From assembly GCF_003019035.1 (NCBI RefSeq), contig NZ_CP027447.1: DNA of 64,000 bases. The stretch is one strand, 5' to 3'. Made by a program: the position numbers and the translations under genes. Shown here in pieces: positions 58,150 to 64,000 of the stretch. Source of the stretch: Escherichia coli. GTDB lineage: Bacteria; Pseudomonadota; Gammaproteobacteria; Enterobacterales; Enterobacteriaceae. Under the pieces are notes generated by a model that saw only the letters and a program-made list of their open reading frames with translations, had not been told where the DNA came from and did not search any database. How positions within the stretch are numbered: position 1 is the first letter of the stretch; each line of letters begins with the position of its first letter.

Positions 58150-58196
58150 GTGAGGAAGACCGGGCGGGAAACTGCCCGGCCTGAACATACCTGAAT

Positions 58197-58334
58197 GGTT
58201 ATCCCCGCTGACGCGGGGAACATAAGTTCGACAACTTAAAAAATGATAACAAGTCCGGTTTATCCCCGCTGATGCAGGGAACATAATAAAAACTTTAACT
58301 AGTTCGGTTTATCCCTGTTTTTACAAGGAATATT
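58197..58334 (-). CRISPR. Degenerate CRISPR remnant: three decayed repeats (…GGGGAACAT, …GCAGGGAACAT, …CAAGGAATAT) with one 32-bp and one 20-bp spacer
   Basis: Repeat-like units at 58197-58224, 58257-58285, 58306-58334 with accumulating mismatches. Confidence 0.7.
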
Positions 58335-58786: not shown

Positions 58787-59059
58787 TGGTTTATCCCCGC
58801 TGGTGCGGGGAACTCTTGGCATAGGCGCTATAGCGGCGCTCTGTGTCCGGTTTATCCCCGCTGGCACGGGGAACTCGTTGGTGCCGTTGTTGTAACCGTA
58901 GAAACCGACGGTTTATCCCCGCTGACGTGGGGAACTCGCAGGTCAACACGGGCGATAAACCCGGCTGACCGGTTTATCCCCGCTGACGTGGGGAACTCGA
59001 TAAGCAGATTGCAGAACTACAGGCGAAGGACGGTTTATCCCCGCTGACGTGGGGAACTC
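58787..59059 (-). CRISPR. CRISPR array 2 (type I-E repeats, 5 repeats / 4 spacers of 32 bp); repeat variants ending AACTC; leader at high-coordinate end
   Basis: Repeats at 58787, 58848, 58909, 58970, 59031; R1 TGG…GCTGGTGCGGGG, R2 …GCTGGCACGGGG, R3-R5 …GCTGACGTGGGG. Confidence 0.93.
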
Positions 59060-59250
59060 TCTAAACATAACCTATTATTAATTAATGATTTTTTAAGCCA
59101 GTCACAATCTACCAACTTTACAGGATCACACAAACAACACATCCATTATGTTAAAGAACACTTAATCCATTGATTAAAAAAGTAAATATTTAAAATAACT
59201 CTATACCCACTAAAATCTACCAAACTTTACCGCAATAATTTTCACTCCAA
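59060..59250 (-). other. Putative leader of CRISPR array 2 (AT-rich, shares CAATCTACCAACT motif with array 1 leader)
   Basis: Motif at the same distance (~60 nt) from the last repeat in both arrays. Confidence 0.5.
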
Positions 59251-59397: not shown

Positions 59398-60069
59398 TCA
59401 GGCAATATTCAAATATTTATGTGTCTGCATCGACAAACGCCAGTTGCGCGCTATGCAGGTATCGATACATAAACGCGTAGCATCTTCCTTCTGGCTAATT
59501 GGCTGAAGTGCAATGACTCGCGGTTTATCATCGGTCAGCGTCGCAAGCAATTCATCCAGTGCTTCGATATCACGTACGCGTCCCACTGGATGCTTGATTT
59601 CGTTGGCTCGCTCCAGTGCCTGTGACAACACTTCATAGCCGCCGCGCATATTCAGCTTTGGCGATACGGTAACCCAGGTATTCGGTGTGCAGCGTACTTC
59701 ATGAGTACCACTGGTTTCGATCTGGCAGCTAAAACCGTTCTTTTCGAGCTGGTCAGTCAGTGGCAGCAAATCATGAATGCAAGGCTCACCACCCGTAATC
59801 ACCACATGCCGTGCGGTGTATCCCTGGCGACCAATGACAGCCAGCAAATCTTCACTGCTCGCAGCCCCCCACTTATCACTCTCTTTGGTCTTCGCCAGAA
59901 TGCTGAAAAGGGAAACTTCCCGATCCTCAAGCTTTTCCCAGGTGTGTTTGGTGTCGCACCAGGCACAGCCAACCGGGCATCCCTGTAAACGAATAAAAAT
60001 GGCGGGGACGCCGGTAAAGTAACCCTCACCTTGCAGGGTCTGGAACATCTCGTTAATCGGGTACTGCAT
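59398..60069 (-). CDS. queE: 7-carboxy-7-deazaguanine synthase QueE (radical SAM, 223 aa)
   Basis: Starts MQYPINEMFQTLQGEG, radical SAM Cys motif CPVGCAWCDT. Confidence 0.95.
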   Translation of the reverse strand: MQYPINEMFQTLQGEGYFTGVPAIFIRLQGCPVGCAWCDTKHTWEKLEDREVSLFSILAKTKESDKWGAASSEDLLAVIGRQGYTARHVVITGGEPCIHDLLPLTDQLEKNGFSCQIETSGTHEVRCTPNTWVTVSPKLNMRGGYEVLSQALERANEIKHPVGRVRDIEALDELLATLTDDKPRVIALQPISQKEDATRLCIDTCIARNWRLSMQTHKYLNIA

Positions 60070-60241
60070 AGCATTCTCTGTGAAGTGGATAATTGTTAAT
60101 TATTGCAGATCCTGCCACAACAATCATGTCTTATTAACATTCTGTTACAGGCAGGTTTAAGGCAAAAAGTGGATGAGATCATAAAGAATAAAATGAAGCG
60201 GCGTATTATGTTTTAAGGAATTAATTAAAAGGGACATAGAC

Positions 60242-60844
60242 ATGCTCAGGATATTCATCGTAATTATATTTATTGTCAATTTATCAGGCTGTGGATATAA
60301 CGATATTCAAACCTATGATGAGCAGGTTAACGCCTCCTGGTCTGAGGTATTGAATCAATATCAACGTCGCGCCGATCTTATTCCTAATCTTGTCGCCAGT
60401 ATTAAAGGTTATTCCAGCCATGAACAAGAGGTACTGGAAGCCGTAACATTGGCACGTAGCCAGGCTAATCGCGCCAGTAGCGATCTTCAGCAAGCTCCGG
60501 GAGATGCGCAAAAATTACAAGCCTGGCAACAAGCCCAGGCGCAGGTGTCTCGCACTCTCGGTCAGTTAACGATAATTAGTGAACGTTACCCTGAGTTAAA
60601 AGCTCAGGAACTCTATCAAAACTTAATGGTACAGCTCGAAGGAAGTGAAAATAGAATTGCCGTTGCGCGAGGAAGATATATTAAAGCCATTGAACAATAT
60701 AATGTCACTATCCGCAAATTCCCCGCTGTATTAACCGCAAAGGTCATGGATTACACACCAAAGAAAAATTATTTGCCGGATGATGTCACCGCAGTAAGTA
60801 AAGCCCCAACAATAGATTTTAGCCAGAATGCTAATGCGCATTAA
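60242..60844 (+). CDS. LemA-family lipoprotein (200 aa)
   Basis: Lipobox LSGC, LemA-like helical region; RBS present; AT-rich. Confidence 0.85.
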   Translation: MLRIFIVIIFIVNLSGCGYNDIQTYDEQVNASWSEVLNQYQRRADLIPNLVASIKGYSSHEQEVLEAVTLARSQANRASSDLQQAPGDAQKLQAWQQAQAQVSRTLGQLTIISERYPELKAQELYQNLMVQLEGSENRIAVARGRYIKAIEQYNVTIRKFPAVLTAKVMDYTPKKNYLPDDVTAVSKAPTIDFSQNANAH

Positions 60845-60857
60845 GCGGGGAAGTTCT

Positions 60858-61751
60858 ATGCGAAATTTTATCTTCCTTATGGCTTTCTTCTGTTCATCTG
60901 TGTTTGCCACACAAATTCCAGTACCTGAATCCCCCAAGTATGTGAATGACTTAACCGGCACATTAACAAACAGCGAAGTAAACACCCTGACCAACCAGAT
61001 TAAAGCCCTGACGCAAAAAAACCACGCACAGTTGGTCGTGTTAGTGGTTGATACAACAGGCGATGAAACCATCGAGCAGTACGCAACGCGGGTATTCGAT
61101 AGCTGGAAACCGGGTGATAAAGACCGCGATGATGGCGTTCTACTGTTAGTCGCCTGGCAGGATCATACCGTGCGTATTGAAATCGGTTACGGACTGGAAG
61201 GTATTATTACGGATGCACAGTCCGGGAAAATTATTCGCAACAGTATTATTCCGGCATTTAAAAAAGGCGACCTGGCTGGTGGTTTACAAAAGGGGATCAA
61301 CGATATTGAAAGTCGCCTGACGGGGAATAATTCAGCAACGATAACACCGACCGATCACCCTTTGCCCTTTAGCGGTTGGTGGGCTTTGTTAGTCTGGGCG
61401 ATAATACTGACGTTTATTTCTGCCAGAGGATATATCAAAACGCTGGGACTGATTTGCTTCGCAGCTATTGTACTGGCCTTTGTTTTACCTATAGCAGGTT
61501 TCAGCGGAAGCTGGGGAGTGCTCGCAACATTACTCTGCTTCGCCACACCGTTCCTGGCTGTCGCCATCGCTTTTACTCCCTTCGGCAAAAAGGTTCGGGA
61601 TTCGATGCGTAATACCAACCAGCCATCACGCCATACAAGAAGTAATTCTTCCTCCCACTATTCGTCATCGTCATCCTCTTCATTCGACAATGACAATTTC
61701 CGCGGTGGTGGCGGTTCATCTGGTGGCGGTGGCGCTTCCGGACGCTGGTAA
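60858..61751 (+). CDS. TPM-domain (YgcG-like) membrane protein paralog 1 with Gly-rich C-terminal tail ...[16 protein letters not shown]
   Basis: Signal peptide, TPM domain, TM segment, Gly-rich tail; start at MRNFIFL. Confidence 0.8.
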   Translation: MRNFIFLMAFFCSSVFATQIPVPESPKYVNDLTGTLTNSEVNTLTNQIKALTQKNHAQLVVLVVDTTGDETIEQYATRVFDSWKPGDKDRDDGVLLLVAWQDHTVRIEIGYGLEGIITDAQSGKIIRNSIIPAFKKGDLAGGLQKGINDIESRLTGNNSATITPTDHPLPFSGWWALLVWAIILTFISARGYIKTLGLICFAAIVLAFVLPIAGFSGSWGVLATLLCFATPFLAVAIAFTPFGKKVRDSMRNTNQPSRHTRSNSSSHYSSSSSSSFDNDNFRGGGGSSGGGGASGRW

Positions 61752-61765
61752 CAAAAGGAATTGAT

Positions 61766-62914
61766 ATGCGTATTTTTCTCTTACTTCTGATGCTATGCGG
61801 TTTTCAGGTATTCGCTGAACAATTGCCTTCAGTAACTGACTTAACCGGGACATTAACGACAGAAGAACAAACTGCTTTAAATCAACAATTACAGACTCTC
61901 GAGCAGCAAAACCACTTCCAGGTGGCCGTGTTGGTTACGCCGACTACAGGGGGCAAAAACATTAAACTTGCAGCCTCGCAGAGATACGGGTTATATCACT
62001 GGAAACCCGTTGGAGAGAAGCGATATGGCGAAGGTATCTTAATTCTCGTCGTATGGCCGGAAGGGCTGGCGTCAATGAAGATTGGACATGGACTGGAACA
62101 GATGTTGCCGCCAGAACAAGCTGCGCAAATTGTTCGTTACCATATGCAGCCAGAATTCGAAAAAAGCAATCTCTTTGCTGGATTAACGGGCGGAATTGAA
62201 AGCATCGCACAGTTTACCCATATCAAAGCGAACCTTAGCCCTTTGGATGCTTTAGCCAATCATCTGTTTGCTAATCCACAACGTTCGCTGCCATGTCTTG
62301 CCTGGACACTGCTGATGATCGTTGCCATCGTTGTCCTCTGGCGATTTACCAGCCGTCCTGGGCCTGGCATATGGATGATATCGATGATTACCCCTATGGT
62401 CTGGTTTTTCTTCTTTCAGGATGATGTCATCATTCGGCGGGTGTCGATCGTTTGTTTTAGTTTATTGTTAGCAACAACCTGCTGGCAGCGTCTCGCGGTA
62501 GTTTTTAATATGTGCCGCGCATTTCCTATGATGCTGGCCCCCAAAAATAAAAACACTAAAGTGAAAAAACAAAAGAAGACCCAGCAATTTCCTGAATCAG
62601 GACGAAATTCATTGTTTGTCGTGATGCTGATAATTGTTGTGGGATGGTGCCTGGTGTTCGCCAGTAATAAAGATATTGCATTCATCTCAACAATTATTGG
62701 GTTAATTGATCATTTTATCGGCCCAATAACCATTGCTGGCATCGTTCTGCTGATCATTGTGGCCAAATTTACTGGCAATCTTAAACTGGGGTCAGGAGAA
62801 AAAAGCAACAGGAAAACGGGGAATCGTAATGCTCATTCTCGCTCTTCGTCGAAAAATTCTTTCCGCGGTGGCGGCGGTTCTTCAGGAGGCGGCGGTTCAT
62901 CCGACCGTTGGTGA
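61766..62914 (+). CDS. TPM-domain membrane protein paralog 2 with extended multi-TM C-terminal region and Gly-rich tail ...[15 protein letters not shown]
   Basis: ATG with AAGGAA RBS; TPM N-terminal domain similar to neighbours. Confidence 0.8.
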
Positions 62915-62919
62915 TCGTT

Positions 62920-63792
62920 ATGCGTATAATCCTTTTTCTACTCACTTTATGGTGCCTTCCTGTGCTTGCCCAGCAAATTGCTGTGCCGGAGCTGCGCCAA
63001 CAGGTGACCGATATTACTGGTACCTTAAGCACGTCTGAACAACAATCACTAACACAACAGCTGCAGGATATTACACAAAAAACACGGGCACAGGTCGCTG
63101 TATTAATAGTGCCATCCACCGGAGACGATTCTATTGAACAATATGCTACAAGAGTTTTTGACAATTGGCGTTTAGGAGATGCCAAACGTAATGATGGGAT
63201 ACTGATCATTGTTGCCTGGTCGGATCGTACTGTCCGCATCCAGGTAGGTTATGGGCTGGAAGAAAAGGTAACCGATGCTCTGGCTGGCAATATCATCCGT
63301 AGCATCATGATACCCGCCTTTAAAAAACAAAAATTAGCTAAGGGATTAGAATTAGCTATAATCGCTTTGAATAACCAACTCACTTCACAACACCAATATT
63401 CGTCTAATCCTTCAGAAAGTGAATCAGCGTCTTCCAGTGATCATTACTACTTTGCTATTTTTTGGGTATTTGCAGTGATGTTCTTCCCTTTCTGGTTTTT
63501 TCATCAAGGCAATAATTTTTGTCGGGCATTTAAAAGCAGTGTTTGTATTTCAACAGTCTATCTTATAGATTTATTCCTGTTCTCCGATCAAACTTTTTCC
63601 ATTGCTGTATTTTCCTTCTTTTTTACTTTCACCACCATTATGGTCTTTACCTGTTTATGTGTACTTCAGAAAAAAGCATCTGGTAGAAGTTATCATTCAG
63701 ACAACAGCGGTTCCGGTGGCGGCTCAAGTGGCGGCGGATTTAGCGGCGGGGGCGGTTCTTCTGGCGGTGGCGGCGCGTCCGGTCGCTGGTAA
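62920..63792 (+). CDS. ygcG: TPM-domain membrane protein (290 aa), likely the YgcG ortholog adjacent to eno
   Basis: 290 aa from ATG 62920, TPM domain, tail [15 protein letters not shown]; position immediately upstream of eno. Confidence 0.75.
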
Positions 63793-63851
63793 CTCAACCA
63801 TAAAAAATGCCAGCCCGAAGGCTGGCATTTTTAAATCAGATAAAGTCAGAC

Positions 63852-64000
<149 letters not shown>

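What the first reader, a model, noticed from the sequence alone, without database searches (positions are those of the whole stretch)
60242..63792. lemA plus three tandem TPM-domain paralogs with conserved Gly-rich tails upstream of eno
Four co-directional genes with overlapping or near-abutting boundaries: a LemA-family lipoprotein and three TPM-domain membrane proteins that each end in a near-identical tail (…[16 protein letters not shown], …[15 protein letters not shown], …[15 protein letters not shown]). From memory only a single ygcG lies between queE and eno in K-12; the third paralog (290 aa) is the likely ygcG ortholog, so lemA and two extra paralogs may be a strain-specific expansion. 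The region is visibly AT-richer than flanking core genes. Paralog 2 has an unusually long multi-TM C-terminal region and paralog 3 has a Phe-rich low-complexity segment. LemA/TPM pairs are widespread but functionally obscure.
Basis: partly seen in the sequence, partly recalled or inferred. Interest (0 to 1): 0.5.

Follow-up and report, generated by a model that had tools for sequence, protein, structure and literature searches.

The report
LemA plus three TPM membrane genes
This is a real, intact four-gene cell-envelope operon of unknown function (one LemA lipoprotein and three TPM-domain membrane proteins) carried by about a quarter of E. coli strains, and E. coli K-12 keeps only a cut-down remnant of it (yqcG-ygcG), so it is an ordinary accessory locus with an interesting history, not a new kind of system.

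Summary
Four co-directional intact genes lie between queE (divergent) and eno (convergent, not downstream): lemA 60242-60844, TPM1 60858-61751, TPM2 61766-62914 and TPM3 62920-63792. All three TPM proteins end in F-x-GGGG-xx-GGGG-x-S-x-x-W. The locus is AT-rich (45.1% GC against 51.6% for the window).

The tail is not special to this locus. In other Proteobacteria, 72 of 73 lemA-adjacent TPM membrane proteins end the same way. Those taxa have one tailed TPM gene; three occur only in Escherichia, and the paralogues form one clade (bootstrap 85).

Among 5,426 complete E. coli genomes, lemA is in 1,454, TPM2 in 1,104 and the K-12-type yqcG-ygcG junction in 3,949. E. albertii has the four-gene form at the same site. 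The first 22 codons of K-12 yqcG lie on DNA homologous to the lemA leader and first 11 codons, so K-12 looks like the reduced state. Window TPM3 is a recombinant: O157-type up to about 63150, then K-12 ygcG-type.

All four genes are under purifying selection.

The function is inferred, not shown. I read it as a periplasm-facing assembly or maintenance module for membrane complexes, probably induced by envelope stress. Interest is low to moderate.

The parts
60070..60241 (.). The 172-nt intergenic region between divergent queE and lemA. It holds a PhoP-box-like direct repeat TGTTAC-AGGCA-GGTTTA (60143-60159) and a short upstream ORF, ATG TTT TAA (60208-60216). The ATG of that short ORF is the position used as the yqcG start codon in K-12.
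   Evidence: Sequence read. Alignment of six haplotypes: the ~90 nt nearest queE are nearly identical in all of them. In K-12 this region carries a sigma-S ChIP peak (PMC4447067) and binds PhoP (PMC4974570). No convincing sigma-70 consensus was found here.
60242..60844 (+). lemA: a 200-aa LemA-family lipoprotein. It has a signal peptide with lipobox LSG-C17 and Gly at +2, followed by a bundle of four long helices.
60858..61751 (+). TPM1: 297 aa. Signal peptide, periplasmic TPM domain, about 3 transmembrane segments, a basic and Ser-rich stretch, then the Gly-rich tail ...[17 protein letters not shown].
   Evidence: Pfam PF04536. PDB 7TBR 2e-22, 5ANP, 2KW7. Hydropathy. TPM domain modelled at pLDDT 88-98. 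dN/dS 0.11-0.23.
61766..62914 (+). TPM2: 382 aa, the divergent paralogue. It has a TPM domain that has lost several residues nearly invariant in the family (E73K, D92E, R106, D119P in TPM1 numbering), about 5 hydrophobic segments, a Lys-rich loop, and the tail ...[17 protein letters not shown].
   Evidence: Alignment. Pfam hit; no NCBIfam hit. Long branch in the tree. Least constrained of the four, dN/dS 0.22-0.64. Present in 1,104 of 5,426 genomes.
62920..63792 (+). TPM3: 290 aa, a recombinant gene. The 5' part (62920 to about 63150) is of the O157 and E. albertii third-paralogue type. The 3' part (about 63145 to 63792) is of the K-12 ygcG type, including the Phe-rich membrane region and the tail ...[15 protein letters not shown].
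   Evidence: Sliding-window identity. BLAST against K-12 and O157 loci. dN/dS 0.11-0.40.
63115..63160 (+). Approximate crossover point inside TPM3, in the conserved core of the TPM domain.
   Evidence: Identity to O157 falls from 93% to 65% while identity to K-12 rises from 57% to 100% across these windows.
61702..61752 (+). Tail-coding direct repeat, copy 1. The other copies are at 62865-62915 and 63743-63793. Each is 51 nt and they are 75-84% identical.
   Evidence: the repeat finder family D1.
63809..63832 (.). Hairpin GCCAGCC-CGAA-GGCTGGC with an A-tract before it and a T-tract after it. It is probably a bidirectional intrinsic terminator shared by the operon and the convergent eno gene.
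   Evidence: Read directly from the sequence. The simple terminator scan did not list it.

Best explanation
What it is (well supported). This is an intact copy of the Escherichia lemA-TPM operon, an accessory cell-envelope operon at a fixed chromosomal site between queE and eno. It is a lineage-specific elaboration of a module found widely in Proteobacteria: a LemA lipoprotein followed by a YgcG-family membrane protein. That protein has a signal peptide, a periplasmic TPM domain, about 3 transmembrane segments and a cytoplasmic Gly-rich tail ending in Trp. In Escherichia the tailed TPM gene was duplicated into several paralogue types. These types have since been shuffled and lost by recombination between alleles and paralogues. 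K-12's yqcG-ygcG is the reduced form, and the window's TPM3 is a recombinant between the two main haplotypes.

How it most likely works (inferred, about 0.3). LemA is lipid-anchored and faces the periplasm. The +2 rule predicts the outer membrane. The TPM domains sit on the periplasmic face of the inner membrane. Like the characterised TPM proteins, they would act as non-enzymatic assembly, repair or auxiliary factors for integral membrane complexes. In Psb32 the membrane helix is what docks onto the client complex. By analogy, the divergent, cassette-like membrane regions of the three paralogues would choose different clients, while the conserved TPM domain and cytoplasmic tail provide functions common to all three. 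Expression probably comes from the queE-divergent control region, which in K-12 is bound by sigma-S and PhoP and drives the envelope-stress protein YqcG.

For: Conserved module: 67 of 69 non-Escherichia lemA loci with enough flanking DNA have an adjacent tailed TPM gene, and 72 of 73 such proteins end in GGG[AS]S[GD]xW. No other neighbouring gene is conserved apart from a ~171-aa soluble TPM-like protein.

Lipoprotein: the lipobox Cys is invariant in 40 homologues.

Topology: signal peptide, about 3 hydrophobic segments, then a stretch with net positive charge before the tail.

Functional genes: dN/dS is below 1 for all four.

Duplication within the lineage: all Escherichia paralogues form one clade, bootstrap 85.

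Polymorphism and history: census; E. albertii; yqcG scar; crossover.

Domain conserved, membrane region variable: alignment.

Analogies from papers: the Psb32 TPM domain plus a client-binding membrane helix in PSII (bioRxiv 10.1101/2025.05.08.652833); CcoZ and the mycobacterial supercomplex subunit (PMC8267372); TPM proposed as an assembly chaperone rather than a phosphatase (PMC11237479; PMC12419801); the LemA-family protein MamQ is individually essential for magnetosome formation (PMC4902198, PMC3905215).

Regulation in K-12.
Against: There is no experimental function for any LemA-TPM pair outside magnetosomes and photosystems. PMC4902198 states that MamQ is the only LemA protein linked to a known process.

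A fused LemA-linker-TPM model built on a paired 32-sequence alignment gave pTM 0.50, so it offers no support for direct docking.

The LemA fold is a generic helical bundle and says nothing about function.

Outer-membrane sorting rests only on the +2 rule. The number of transmembrane segments comes from a crude hydropathy scan. No sigma-70 consensus was found in the leader, and promoter use is extrapolated from K-12.

The locus is dispensable and often damaged. 73% of genomes carry the K-12-type yqcG-ygcG junction in place of the lemA form. In O157, lemA has ATG changed to ACG and TPM1 is truncated at 224 aa. One strain has an IS1-associated deletion.
Confidence: 0.5

Rival explanations
1. A recent, strain-specific horizontally acquired island or gene expansion.
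For: The GC and GC3 are low. In the scan of species-representative genomes, LemA relatives above 90% identity appeared only in E. coli and E. albertii, and no Salmonella, Klebsiella or Citrobacter was among the best 80 loci; the next best were a 69% Enterobacteriaceae MAG and Buttiauxella and Erwinia at 53-55%, located elsewhere in their genomes. This fits an old acquisition by an Escherichia ancestor.
Against: The locus is always at the same chromosomal site and never on a plasmid. It is shared with E. albertii, with synonymous divergence like that of queE. It occurs in 20-27% of complete genomes. K-12 retains a scar of the lemA 5' end. No integrase, tRNA gene or flanking repeats were seen, and the only IS found is secondary.
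Confidence: 0.1
2. The TPM proteins are periplasmic enzymes (phosphatase, ATPase or ADPase) and the operon is a catalytic pathway, not an assembly factor.
For: The Pfam family is named TPM_phosphatase. Low acid-phosphatase activity has been reported for TLP18.3, and an ATPase/ADPase activity for a TPM domain (citations inside). TPM1 and TPM3 keep a conserved set of acidic residues (D31, E73, D92, E114, D119).
Against: The reported activity of TLP18.3 is low. Recent comparative work argues against a phosphatase role. ATP is not expected in the periplasm (general knowledge). TPM2 has lost several of the conserved acidic residues yet is still under purifying selection. The structure of Psb32 bound to PSII shows a scaffolding role.
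Confidence: 0.15
3. An anti-phage defence or phage-derived cassette. The locus is polymorphic, AT-rich, next to a CRISPR array, and LemA resembles a phage protein family.
For: It lies about 1.2 kb from type I-E CRISPR repeats. It shows presence/absence and allelic polymorphism. LemA matches PHROG 1383, annotated 'virion structural protein', at E = 3.5e-22.
Against: None of the proteins matches PADLOC. The TPM proteins have no PHROG match. The same module sits in unrelated, non-island contexts across Beta- and Gammaproteobacteria with no conserved defence neighbours. No nuclease, ATPase or other effector-like domain is present. Proximity to the CRISPR array is a fixed feature of the E. coli chromosome, K-12 included.
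Confidence: 0.05
4. The cluster is a decaying, functionless remnant even in this strain.
For: The locus is repeatedly lost or damaged in other strains. TPM2 reaches dN/dS of 0.64 between close alleles.
Against: All four reading frames are intact in the window, with plausible ribosome-binding sites. dN/dS is well below 1 over the deep comparisons: 0.03 for lemA, 0.18 for TPM1 and 0.22 for TPM2 against E. albertii. The tail motif and lipobox are preserved.
Confidence: 0.1

Closest known systems
E. coli K-12 yqcG-ygcG locus (b4682, b2778)
   Same: It occupies the same site between queE and eno. The queE-proximal control region is the same. YgcG has the same architecture and tail. The part of ygcG from about codon 76 onward is 92-100% identical in DNA to window TPM3.
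   Different: K-12 lacks lemA, TPM1 and TPM2. In their place is a 46-codon ORF, yqcG, whose first 22 codons lie on DNA homologous to the lemA leader and first 11 codons. A 265-nt stretch (the yqcG 3' part plus ygcG codons 1-59) has no DNA match in the lemA haplotypes.
Canonical proteobacterial lemA-TPM operon (for example Pseudomonas, Azospira, Xanthomonas, Methylobacillus; loci L009-L083)
   Same: A LemA lipoprotein with the invariant lipobox, directly followed by a membrane TPM protein that ends in GGGG..GGGGASGxW.
   Different: Those operons have one tailed TPM gene, and 27 loci also have a ~171-aa soluble TPM-like protein without a tail. The window has three tailed paralogues and no short one.
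Psb32 / TLP18.3 (photosystem II assembly and repair factor)
   Same: A TPM domain on the extracytoplasmic (lumenal) side, tethered by a C-terminal membrane segment. In the cryo-EM structure it is the membrane helix that contacts the client complex.
   Different: The match is only weak and below cut-off (34-37 bits against a cut-off of 160). Psb32 has one membrane helix and no Gly-rich tail. It has no LemA partner, and E. coli has no photosystem.
MamQ (LemA-family magnetosome protein)
   Same: It has a LemA domain facing the extracytoplasmic side and is individually essential for magnetosome formation. The match is E = 5e-26.
   Different: The score of 91 bits is far below the 250-bit equivalog cut-off. 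MamQ is anchored by a transmembrane helix, not a lipid, and has no TPM partner.
B. subtilis YdjH in the pspA-ydjGHI operon; CcoZ (C. jejuni); MSMEG_4692
   Same: These are membrane-associated TPM proteins tied to membrane stress or to respiratory complexes. [quoted passage not shown]
   Different: Their operon partners are different (PspA and a band-7 protein, or cbb3 oxidase genes). No sequence-level orthology was tested here.

Membership tests
LemA family (Pfam PF04011) | Full-length significant match to the LemA profile | tested here: met
   E = 1.2e-48, covering model positions 1-149 of 149.
LemA family (Pfam PF04011) | Helical-bundle fold of T. maritima TM0961 (PDB 2ETD) | tested here: met
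LemA family (Pfam PF04011) | N-terminal membrane anchor with the helical domain outside the cytoplasm | tested here: met
   Signal peptide plus lipobox LSGC; the Cys is invariant in 40 homologues. Lipidation and the membrane of residence were not tested experimentally.
MamQ (NCBIfam NF040966, equivalog) | Score at or above the curated cut-off of 250 bits | tested here: not met
   91.4 bits. It is a relative, not a MamQ.
TPM domain / YgcG family (Pfam PF04536) | Significant TPM-domain match in each paralogue | tested here: met
   All 3 of 3 members match at E <= 0.001, best 2.4e-41. TPM1 against PDB 7TBR 2.4e-22, 5ANP 1.6e-20, 2KW7 2.5e-19.
TPM domain / YgcG family (Pfam PF04536) | Conserved core residues (VxDxT..L, IE, DDG, GYGLE, D119, PxF) | tested here: inconclusive
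   TPM1 and TPM3 keep all of them. TPM2 departs at E73, D92, R106 and D119 and has GHGLE.
TPM domain / YgcG family (Pfam PF04536) | Signal peptide, membrane region and C-terminal tail F-x-GGGG-xx-GGGG-x-S-x-x-W; gene adjacent to lemA | tested here: met
   All three window proteins have these. 72 of 73 lemA-adjacent homologues share the tail.
TPM domain / YgcG family (Pfam PF04536) | Phosphatase or nucleotidase activity, as the family name implies | not testable with these tools
   This needs biochemistry. The literature is divided.
Psb32 (NCBIfam NF047379, equivalog) | Score at or above the curated cut-off of 160 bits | tested here: not met
   34.4 bits for TPM1, 36.9 bits for TPM3 and no hit for TPM2.
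Orthologue of K-12 ygcG (for TPM3) | Allelic-level DNA identity over the whole gene | tested here: inconclusive
   92-100% from about 63145 to the end, but 52-62% over 62920-63114. Overall protein identity is 79%. The gene is a chimera.
Known anti-phage defence systems (PADLOC-DB 2.0) | Match of any component to a defence-system model | tested here: not met
   No match for any of six proteins at E <= 0.01.

The most novel reading that the evidence does not exclude
The three paralogues are client-specific adaptors of one trans-envelope device. An outer-membrane-anchored LemA would pair with inner-membrane TPM proteins whose interchangeable membrane cassettes each dock onto a different inner-membrane complex. 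The invariant cytoplasmic tail (an aromatic residue, a Gly-rich spacer, then the C-terminal Trp) would be a previously undescribed motif that clusters the proteins or recruits a cytoplasmic partner. The long-lived polymorphism between the full operon and the reduced K-12 form would then reflect selection, not simple decay.
Probability: 0.12. Interest if true: 0.6.

Novelty: new member of a known kind. Interest (0 to 1): 0.3.

Why it matters
LemA and YgcG-type TPM proteins are among the most widespread bacterial envelope proteins that still lack a function. This locus gives natural genetic material in E. coli for studying them: strains with the full operon, strains with lemA plus one TPM gene, and strains with only ygcG.

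It also changes how two K-12 genes should be read. By its sequence, the envelope-stress small protein YqcG is an ORF built on the remains of the lemA 5' end, and ygcG is the last survivor of a larger operon. K-12 results may therefore understate what the system does.

The contrast between a conserved periplasmic domain, a conserved tail and a freely replaced membrane region gives a concrete hypothesis to test about how TPM proteins choose their partners.

Tried and rejected
1. LemA profile against K-12 yqcG. A profile built from about 70 homologues found nothing in the three forward frames of K-12 2280-2480. Only the first ~22 codons of yqcG (to ~30 on a weaker alignment) can be tied to lemA, by DNA alignment. 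The idea that yqcG is an internally deleted lemA that keeps its 3' end is not supported.

2. LemA-TPM docking. I fused mature LemA, a 30-residue linker and the TPM domain, using a paired alignment of 32 species. The model had pTM 0.50, which gives no evidence of an interface, and the tool returns no PAE.

4. Defence-system reading. PADLOC was negative. The LemA match in PHROGs was noted but not pursued.

5. Homologue search with K-12 YgcG. The best 120 hits were all 81% identical or more, and every source name given was E. coli or Enterobacteriaceae, so it gave no outgroup that would show where the K-12-type N-terminus came from.

6. Promoter scan. It found no sigma-70 consensus in the leader and missed the obvious terminator hairpin.

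7. Literature. Searches for LemA with TPM domain, ygcG and LemA family found no functional study of this operon. The 2010 small-protein paper on YqcG (recalled from memory) is not in the library, so 'envelope stress' rests on the RefSeq product name and on PMC4447067.

8. The first bootstrap tree run timed out and was redone.
Full report
1. WHAT IS IN THE SEQUENCE

ORF listing confirms four co-directional genes on the + strand: lemA (60242-60844, 200 aa), TPM1, TPM2 and TPM3. The longest ORFs for TPM1 and TPM3 start at 60828 and 62908. The start codons that RefSeq uses for the equivalent genes in other strains are 60858 and 62920; Shine-Dalgarno-like GGGGAAG lies before 60858 and GGTGAT before 62920. 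With those starts the proteins are 297, 382 and 290 aa and the gaps between genes are 13, 14 and 5 nt, as expected for one operon.

queE (59398-60069) is on the minus strand and divergent. eno is also on the minus strand, with its stop codon at 63852-63854, so it converges on the operon. A hairpin, GCCAGCC-CGAA-GGCTGGC, flanked by A and T tracts at 63809-63832, lies between the two.

The locus is 45.1% GC against 51.6% for the window, in the lowest 4.5% of windows of its size. lemA and TPM3 have the lowest GC3 (0.378) of all long ORFs in the window. The window is E. coli: this stretch is 100% identical to strain SCU-301.

2. WHAT THE PROTEINS ARE

Pfam gives LemA (PF04011, E = 1.2e-48, full length) and a TPM domain (PF04536) in all three paralogues. 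LemA matches the solved T. maritima LemA structure 2ETD at E = 1e-32. TPM1 matches the solved TPM domains 7TBR, 5ANP and 2KW7.

NCBIfam shows only below-threshold relatives: MamQ at 91 bits against a cut-off of 250, and Psb32 at 34-37 bits against 160. These proteins are family members but not orthologues of MamQ or Psb32.

An alignment of 40 proteobacterial LemA homologues shows an invariant lipobox L-[STA]-G-C with Gly at +2. This subfamily is therefore a lipoprotein. By the E. coli +2 rule (established knowledge; an inference here) it would be sorted to the outer membrane and face the periplasm.

A hydropathy scan gives each TPM protein a signal peptide, then the TPM domain, then about three hydrophobic segments (about five in TPM2). 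Next comes a stretch with more basic than acidic residues (K+R against D+E: 6 to 3, 8 to 1 and 3 to 1), and finally the tail. This places the TPM domains in the periplasm and the tails in the cytoplasm. That topology is an inference.

3. THE TAIL BELONGS TO THE FAMILY; THE TRIPLICATION BELONGS TO ESCHERICHIA

A scan of one genome per species with the window's LemA gave 80 loci. Of the 69 non-Escherichia loci with enough flanking DNA, 67 have a membrane TPM gene next to lemA. Of 73 such proteins, 72 end in GGG[AS]S[GD]xW with an invariant final Trp.

Clustering all neighbouring ORFs showed only three conserved genes: lemA, the tailed TPM gene and, in 27 loci, a ~171-aa soluble TPM-like protein without a tail. 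The usual module therefore has one tailed TPM gene. Three tailed paralogues occur only in E. coli and E. albertii.

In the alignment of paralogues and outgroups, the TPM domain and the tail are conserved (F281, G283-286, G289-292, S294 and W297 are invariant), but the membrane region between them cannot be aligned across paralogue types. TPM2 has also lost several residues that are nearly invariant in the rest of the family.

A bootstrapped neighbour-joining tree of the TPM domains puts all Escherichia paralogues, K-12 YgcG included, in one clade (85%), apart from the single-copy proteins of 20 other genera. This indicates duplication within the lineage.

4. POPULATION AND HISTORY

Among 5,426 complete E. 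coli genomes, the markers are distributed as follows.
- lemA: 1,454 genomes.
- TPM2: 1,104 genomes.
- The O157-type third-paralogue C-terminus: 783 genomes.
- A 120-aa two-helix gene that replaces TPM2 and TPM3 in a lemA-TPM1 form: 340 genomes.
- The K-12-type yqcG-ygcG junction: 3,949 genomes.

All copies are chromosomal and almost always single. The lemA form and the K-12 form together account for 5,403 of the 5,426 genomes; I did not check per genome that no strain carries both. By subtraction, the window's exact architecture is present in roughly 300 genomes.

E. albertii has lemA, TPM1, TPM2 and TPM3 directly next to queE. Synonymous divergence between the window and E. albertii is 0.75 for lemA, 0.39 for TPM1 and 0.44 for TPM2, against 0.64 for queE. 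This is consistent with presence before the two species split.

Close LemA relatives were not found in other enteric genera among the best 80 loci. The next best are a 69% metagenome-assembled genome and Buttiauxella and Erwinia at 53-55%, where no queE was found within the fetched flanks. An old acquisition by an Escherichia ancestor is therefore plausible but not shown.

5. K-12 IS THE REDUCED FORM

K-12 DNA aligns with the window from queE through the intergenic region and 33 nt into lemA (window 60070-60274, 82%). It aligns again only from 63097, inside TPM3.

The yqcG start codon corresponds to a conserved ATG at window 60208. In the lemA haplotypes this ATG opens only a 2-6 codon upstream ORF. 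In K-12 a 1-nt deletion just after the lemA ATG lets that frame run on through the lemA signal-peptide codons, and the lipobox Cys is lost.

The rest of yqcG shows no LemA signal with a family profile, so only its 5' part can be called a lemA relic. The 265 nt that K-12 has between the two breakpoints (the yqcG 3' part and ygcG codons 1-59) have no DNA match in the three lemA-carrying loci compared (window, JNE120393, O157). At protein level, however, that ygcG N-terminus is a TPM3-type sequence.

6. THE WINDOW'S TPM3 IS A RECOMBINANT

Sliding-window identity shows that window TPM3 is 88-97% identical to the O157 and E. albertii third paralogue over 62920 to about 63150. It is then 92-100% identical to K-12 ygcG to the end. 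Identity to the other parent is only 52-62% over 62920-63114 and 27-68% over most of the K-12-like part, rising again only in the shared tail. The crossover is at about 63115-63160, in the conserved TPM core.

The simplest reading is two old haplotypes at this site, plus recombinants between them. The 51-nt tail-coding repeats (75-84% identical) and the conserved domain cores supply the homology for such events.

Decay recurs in other strains. In O157, lemA has ATG changed to ACG and TPM1 stops at 224 aa. Strain 14EC033 has an IS1 element with a deletion running from lemA into TPM2.

7. ARE THE GENES FUNCTIONAL HERE?

All four reading frames are intact. Pairwise dN/dS is 0.03-0.18 for lemA, 0.11-0.23 for TPM1, 0.22-0.64 for TPM2 and 0.11-0.40 for TPM3, against 0.01-0.05 for queE. 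The genes are therefore constrained, but less so than a core enzyme, and TPM2 is the least constrained.

8. HOW IT PROBABLY WORKS (INFERRED)

No paper in the library assigns a function to this operon. One paper states that MamQ is the only LemA protein linked to a known process.

Characterised TPM proteins act on the extracytoplasmic face of membrane complexes:
- Psb32/TLP18.3 in photosystem II assembly and repair. A cryo-EM structure shows the lumenal TPM domain tethered by a C-terminal helix, and that helix is the part contacting the core complex.
- CcoZ, needed for cbb3 oxidase activity, and a related subunit of the mycobacterial respiratory supercomplex.
- Two comparative studies argue that the domain is an assembly chaperone, not a phosphatase.

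Putting this together with the anatomy, my best reading is as follows. LemA and the TPM proteins form a periplasm-facing maintenance or assembly module for inner-membrane complexes. The divergent membrane regions of the paralogues select different clients. The conserved domain and tail provide the common activity.

The leader region is shared with K-12. There it carries a sigma-S ChIP peak and binds PhoP, and deleting yqcG raises queE expression. A PhoP-box-like repeat at 60143-60159 is conserved in all haplotypes. Induction in stationary phase or under envelope stress is therefore likely but untested.

I put about 0.9 on the identity and history and about 0.3 on the mechanism.

9. RIVALS

A recent strain-specific gain is contradicted by E. 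albertii, by the census and by the K-12 scar. An enzymatic role cannot be excluded without biochemistry. A defence role has no support (PADLOC negative), although LemA does match a phage protein family. Complete loss of function in this strain is unlikely given the intact frames and the level of constraint.

10. VERDICT

The feature is real and correctly described. It belongs to known but uncharacterised families and is already annotated as such in more than a thousand genomes.

What this analysis adds:
- The tail is a family signature.
- The triplication is Escherichia-specific and arose within the lineage.
- K-12 yqcG-ygcG is a reduced derivative.
- The third gene is a recombinant.

Interest is low to moderate.

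Noticed in passing
window 58195-58333 and 58787-59067: Two short arrays of type I-E CRISPR repeats (CGGTTTATCCCCGCTG..GGGGAAC, 61-nt spacing; some copies degenerate) lie between the ygcE-like kinase gene and queE. K-12 has an annotated CRISPR array at the same position.
   Followed up: partly
window 60143-60159: A direct repeat TGTTAC-AGGCA-GGTTTA resembles a PhoP box. It lies in the queE-lemA intergenic region and is conserved in the five E. coli haplotypes aligned; E. albertii has two substitutions. Which of the two divergent genes it serves is unknown.
   Followed up: partly
window 60193-60216: A short upstream ORF precedes lemA (ATG AAG CGG CGT ATT ATG TTT TAA). Its inner ATG at 60208 is the position of the yqcG start codon in K-12. 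It could be a translational leader for the operon.
   Followed up: partly
window 60242-60844 (LemA protein): LemA matches PHROG 1383, annotated 'virion structural protein' in the head and packaging category, at E = 3.5e-22. LemA-like proteins are therefore encoded by some phages. I did not look into why.
   Followed up: no
L019-L080, for example L020:8515-9030: In 27 beta- and gammaproteobacterial loci a third gene follows lemA and the tailed TPM gene. It encodes a ~171-aa TPM-like protein with no signal peptide, no membrane segment and no tail, ending ...NELPD.P... Escherichia has no such gene.
   Followed up: partly
L002:3902-4264 (strain JNE120393): In 340 complete genomes TPM2 and TPM3 are replaced by a 120-aa protein with two predicted membrane helices. 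It has no match in the PADLOC or PHROG libraries; Pfam and NCBIfam were not run on it.
   Followed up: partly
L002:2961-3866: RefSeq marks TPM1 of strain JNE120393 as an incomplete pseudogene that lacks its C-terminus. The reading frame nevertheless runs uninterrupted for 301 aa to a normal ...GGGGASGRW end, so this looks like an annotation artefact. That allele is also very divergent (dS about 0.9-1.0 from other TPM1 alleles).
   Followed up: partly
L004:7001-10287 (GTDB representative E. coli genome): A further arrangement has no TPM2: lemA, TPM1, an O157-type third paralogue (about 300 aa) and then a ygcG-type chimera (about 290 aa). At least four tailed paralogue types therefore exist.
   Followed up: partly
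protein P0001: A single metagenome-derived 459-aa protein is 96% identical to YgcG over 83% of the query. It carries precomputed Pfam hits PF17174 and PF17175 in addition to the TPM domain. It may be a fusion or a gene-calling artefact.
   Followed up: no
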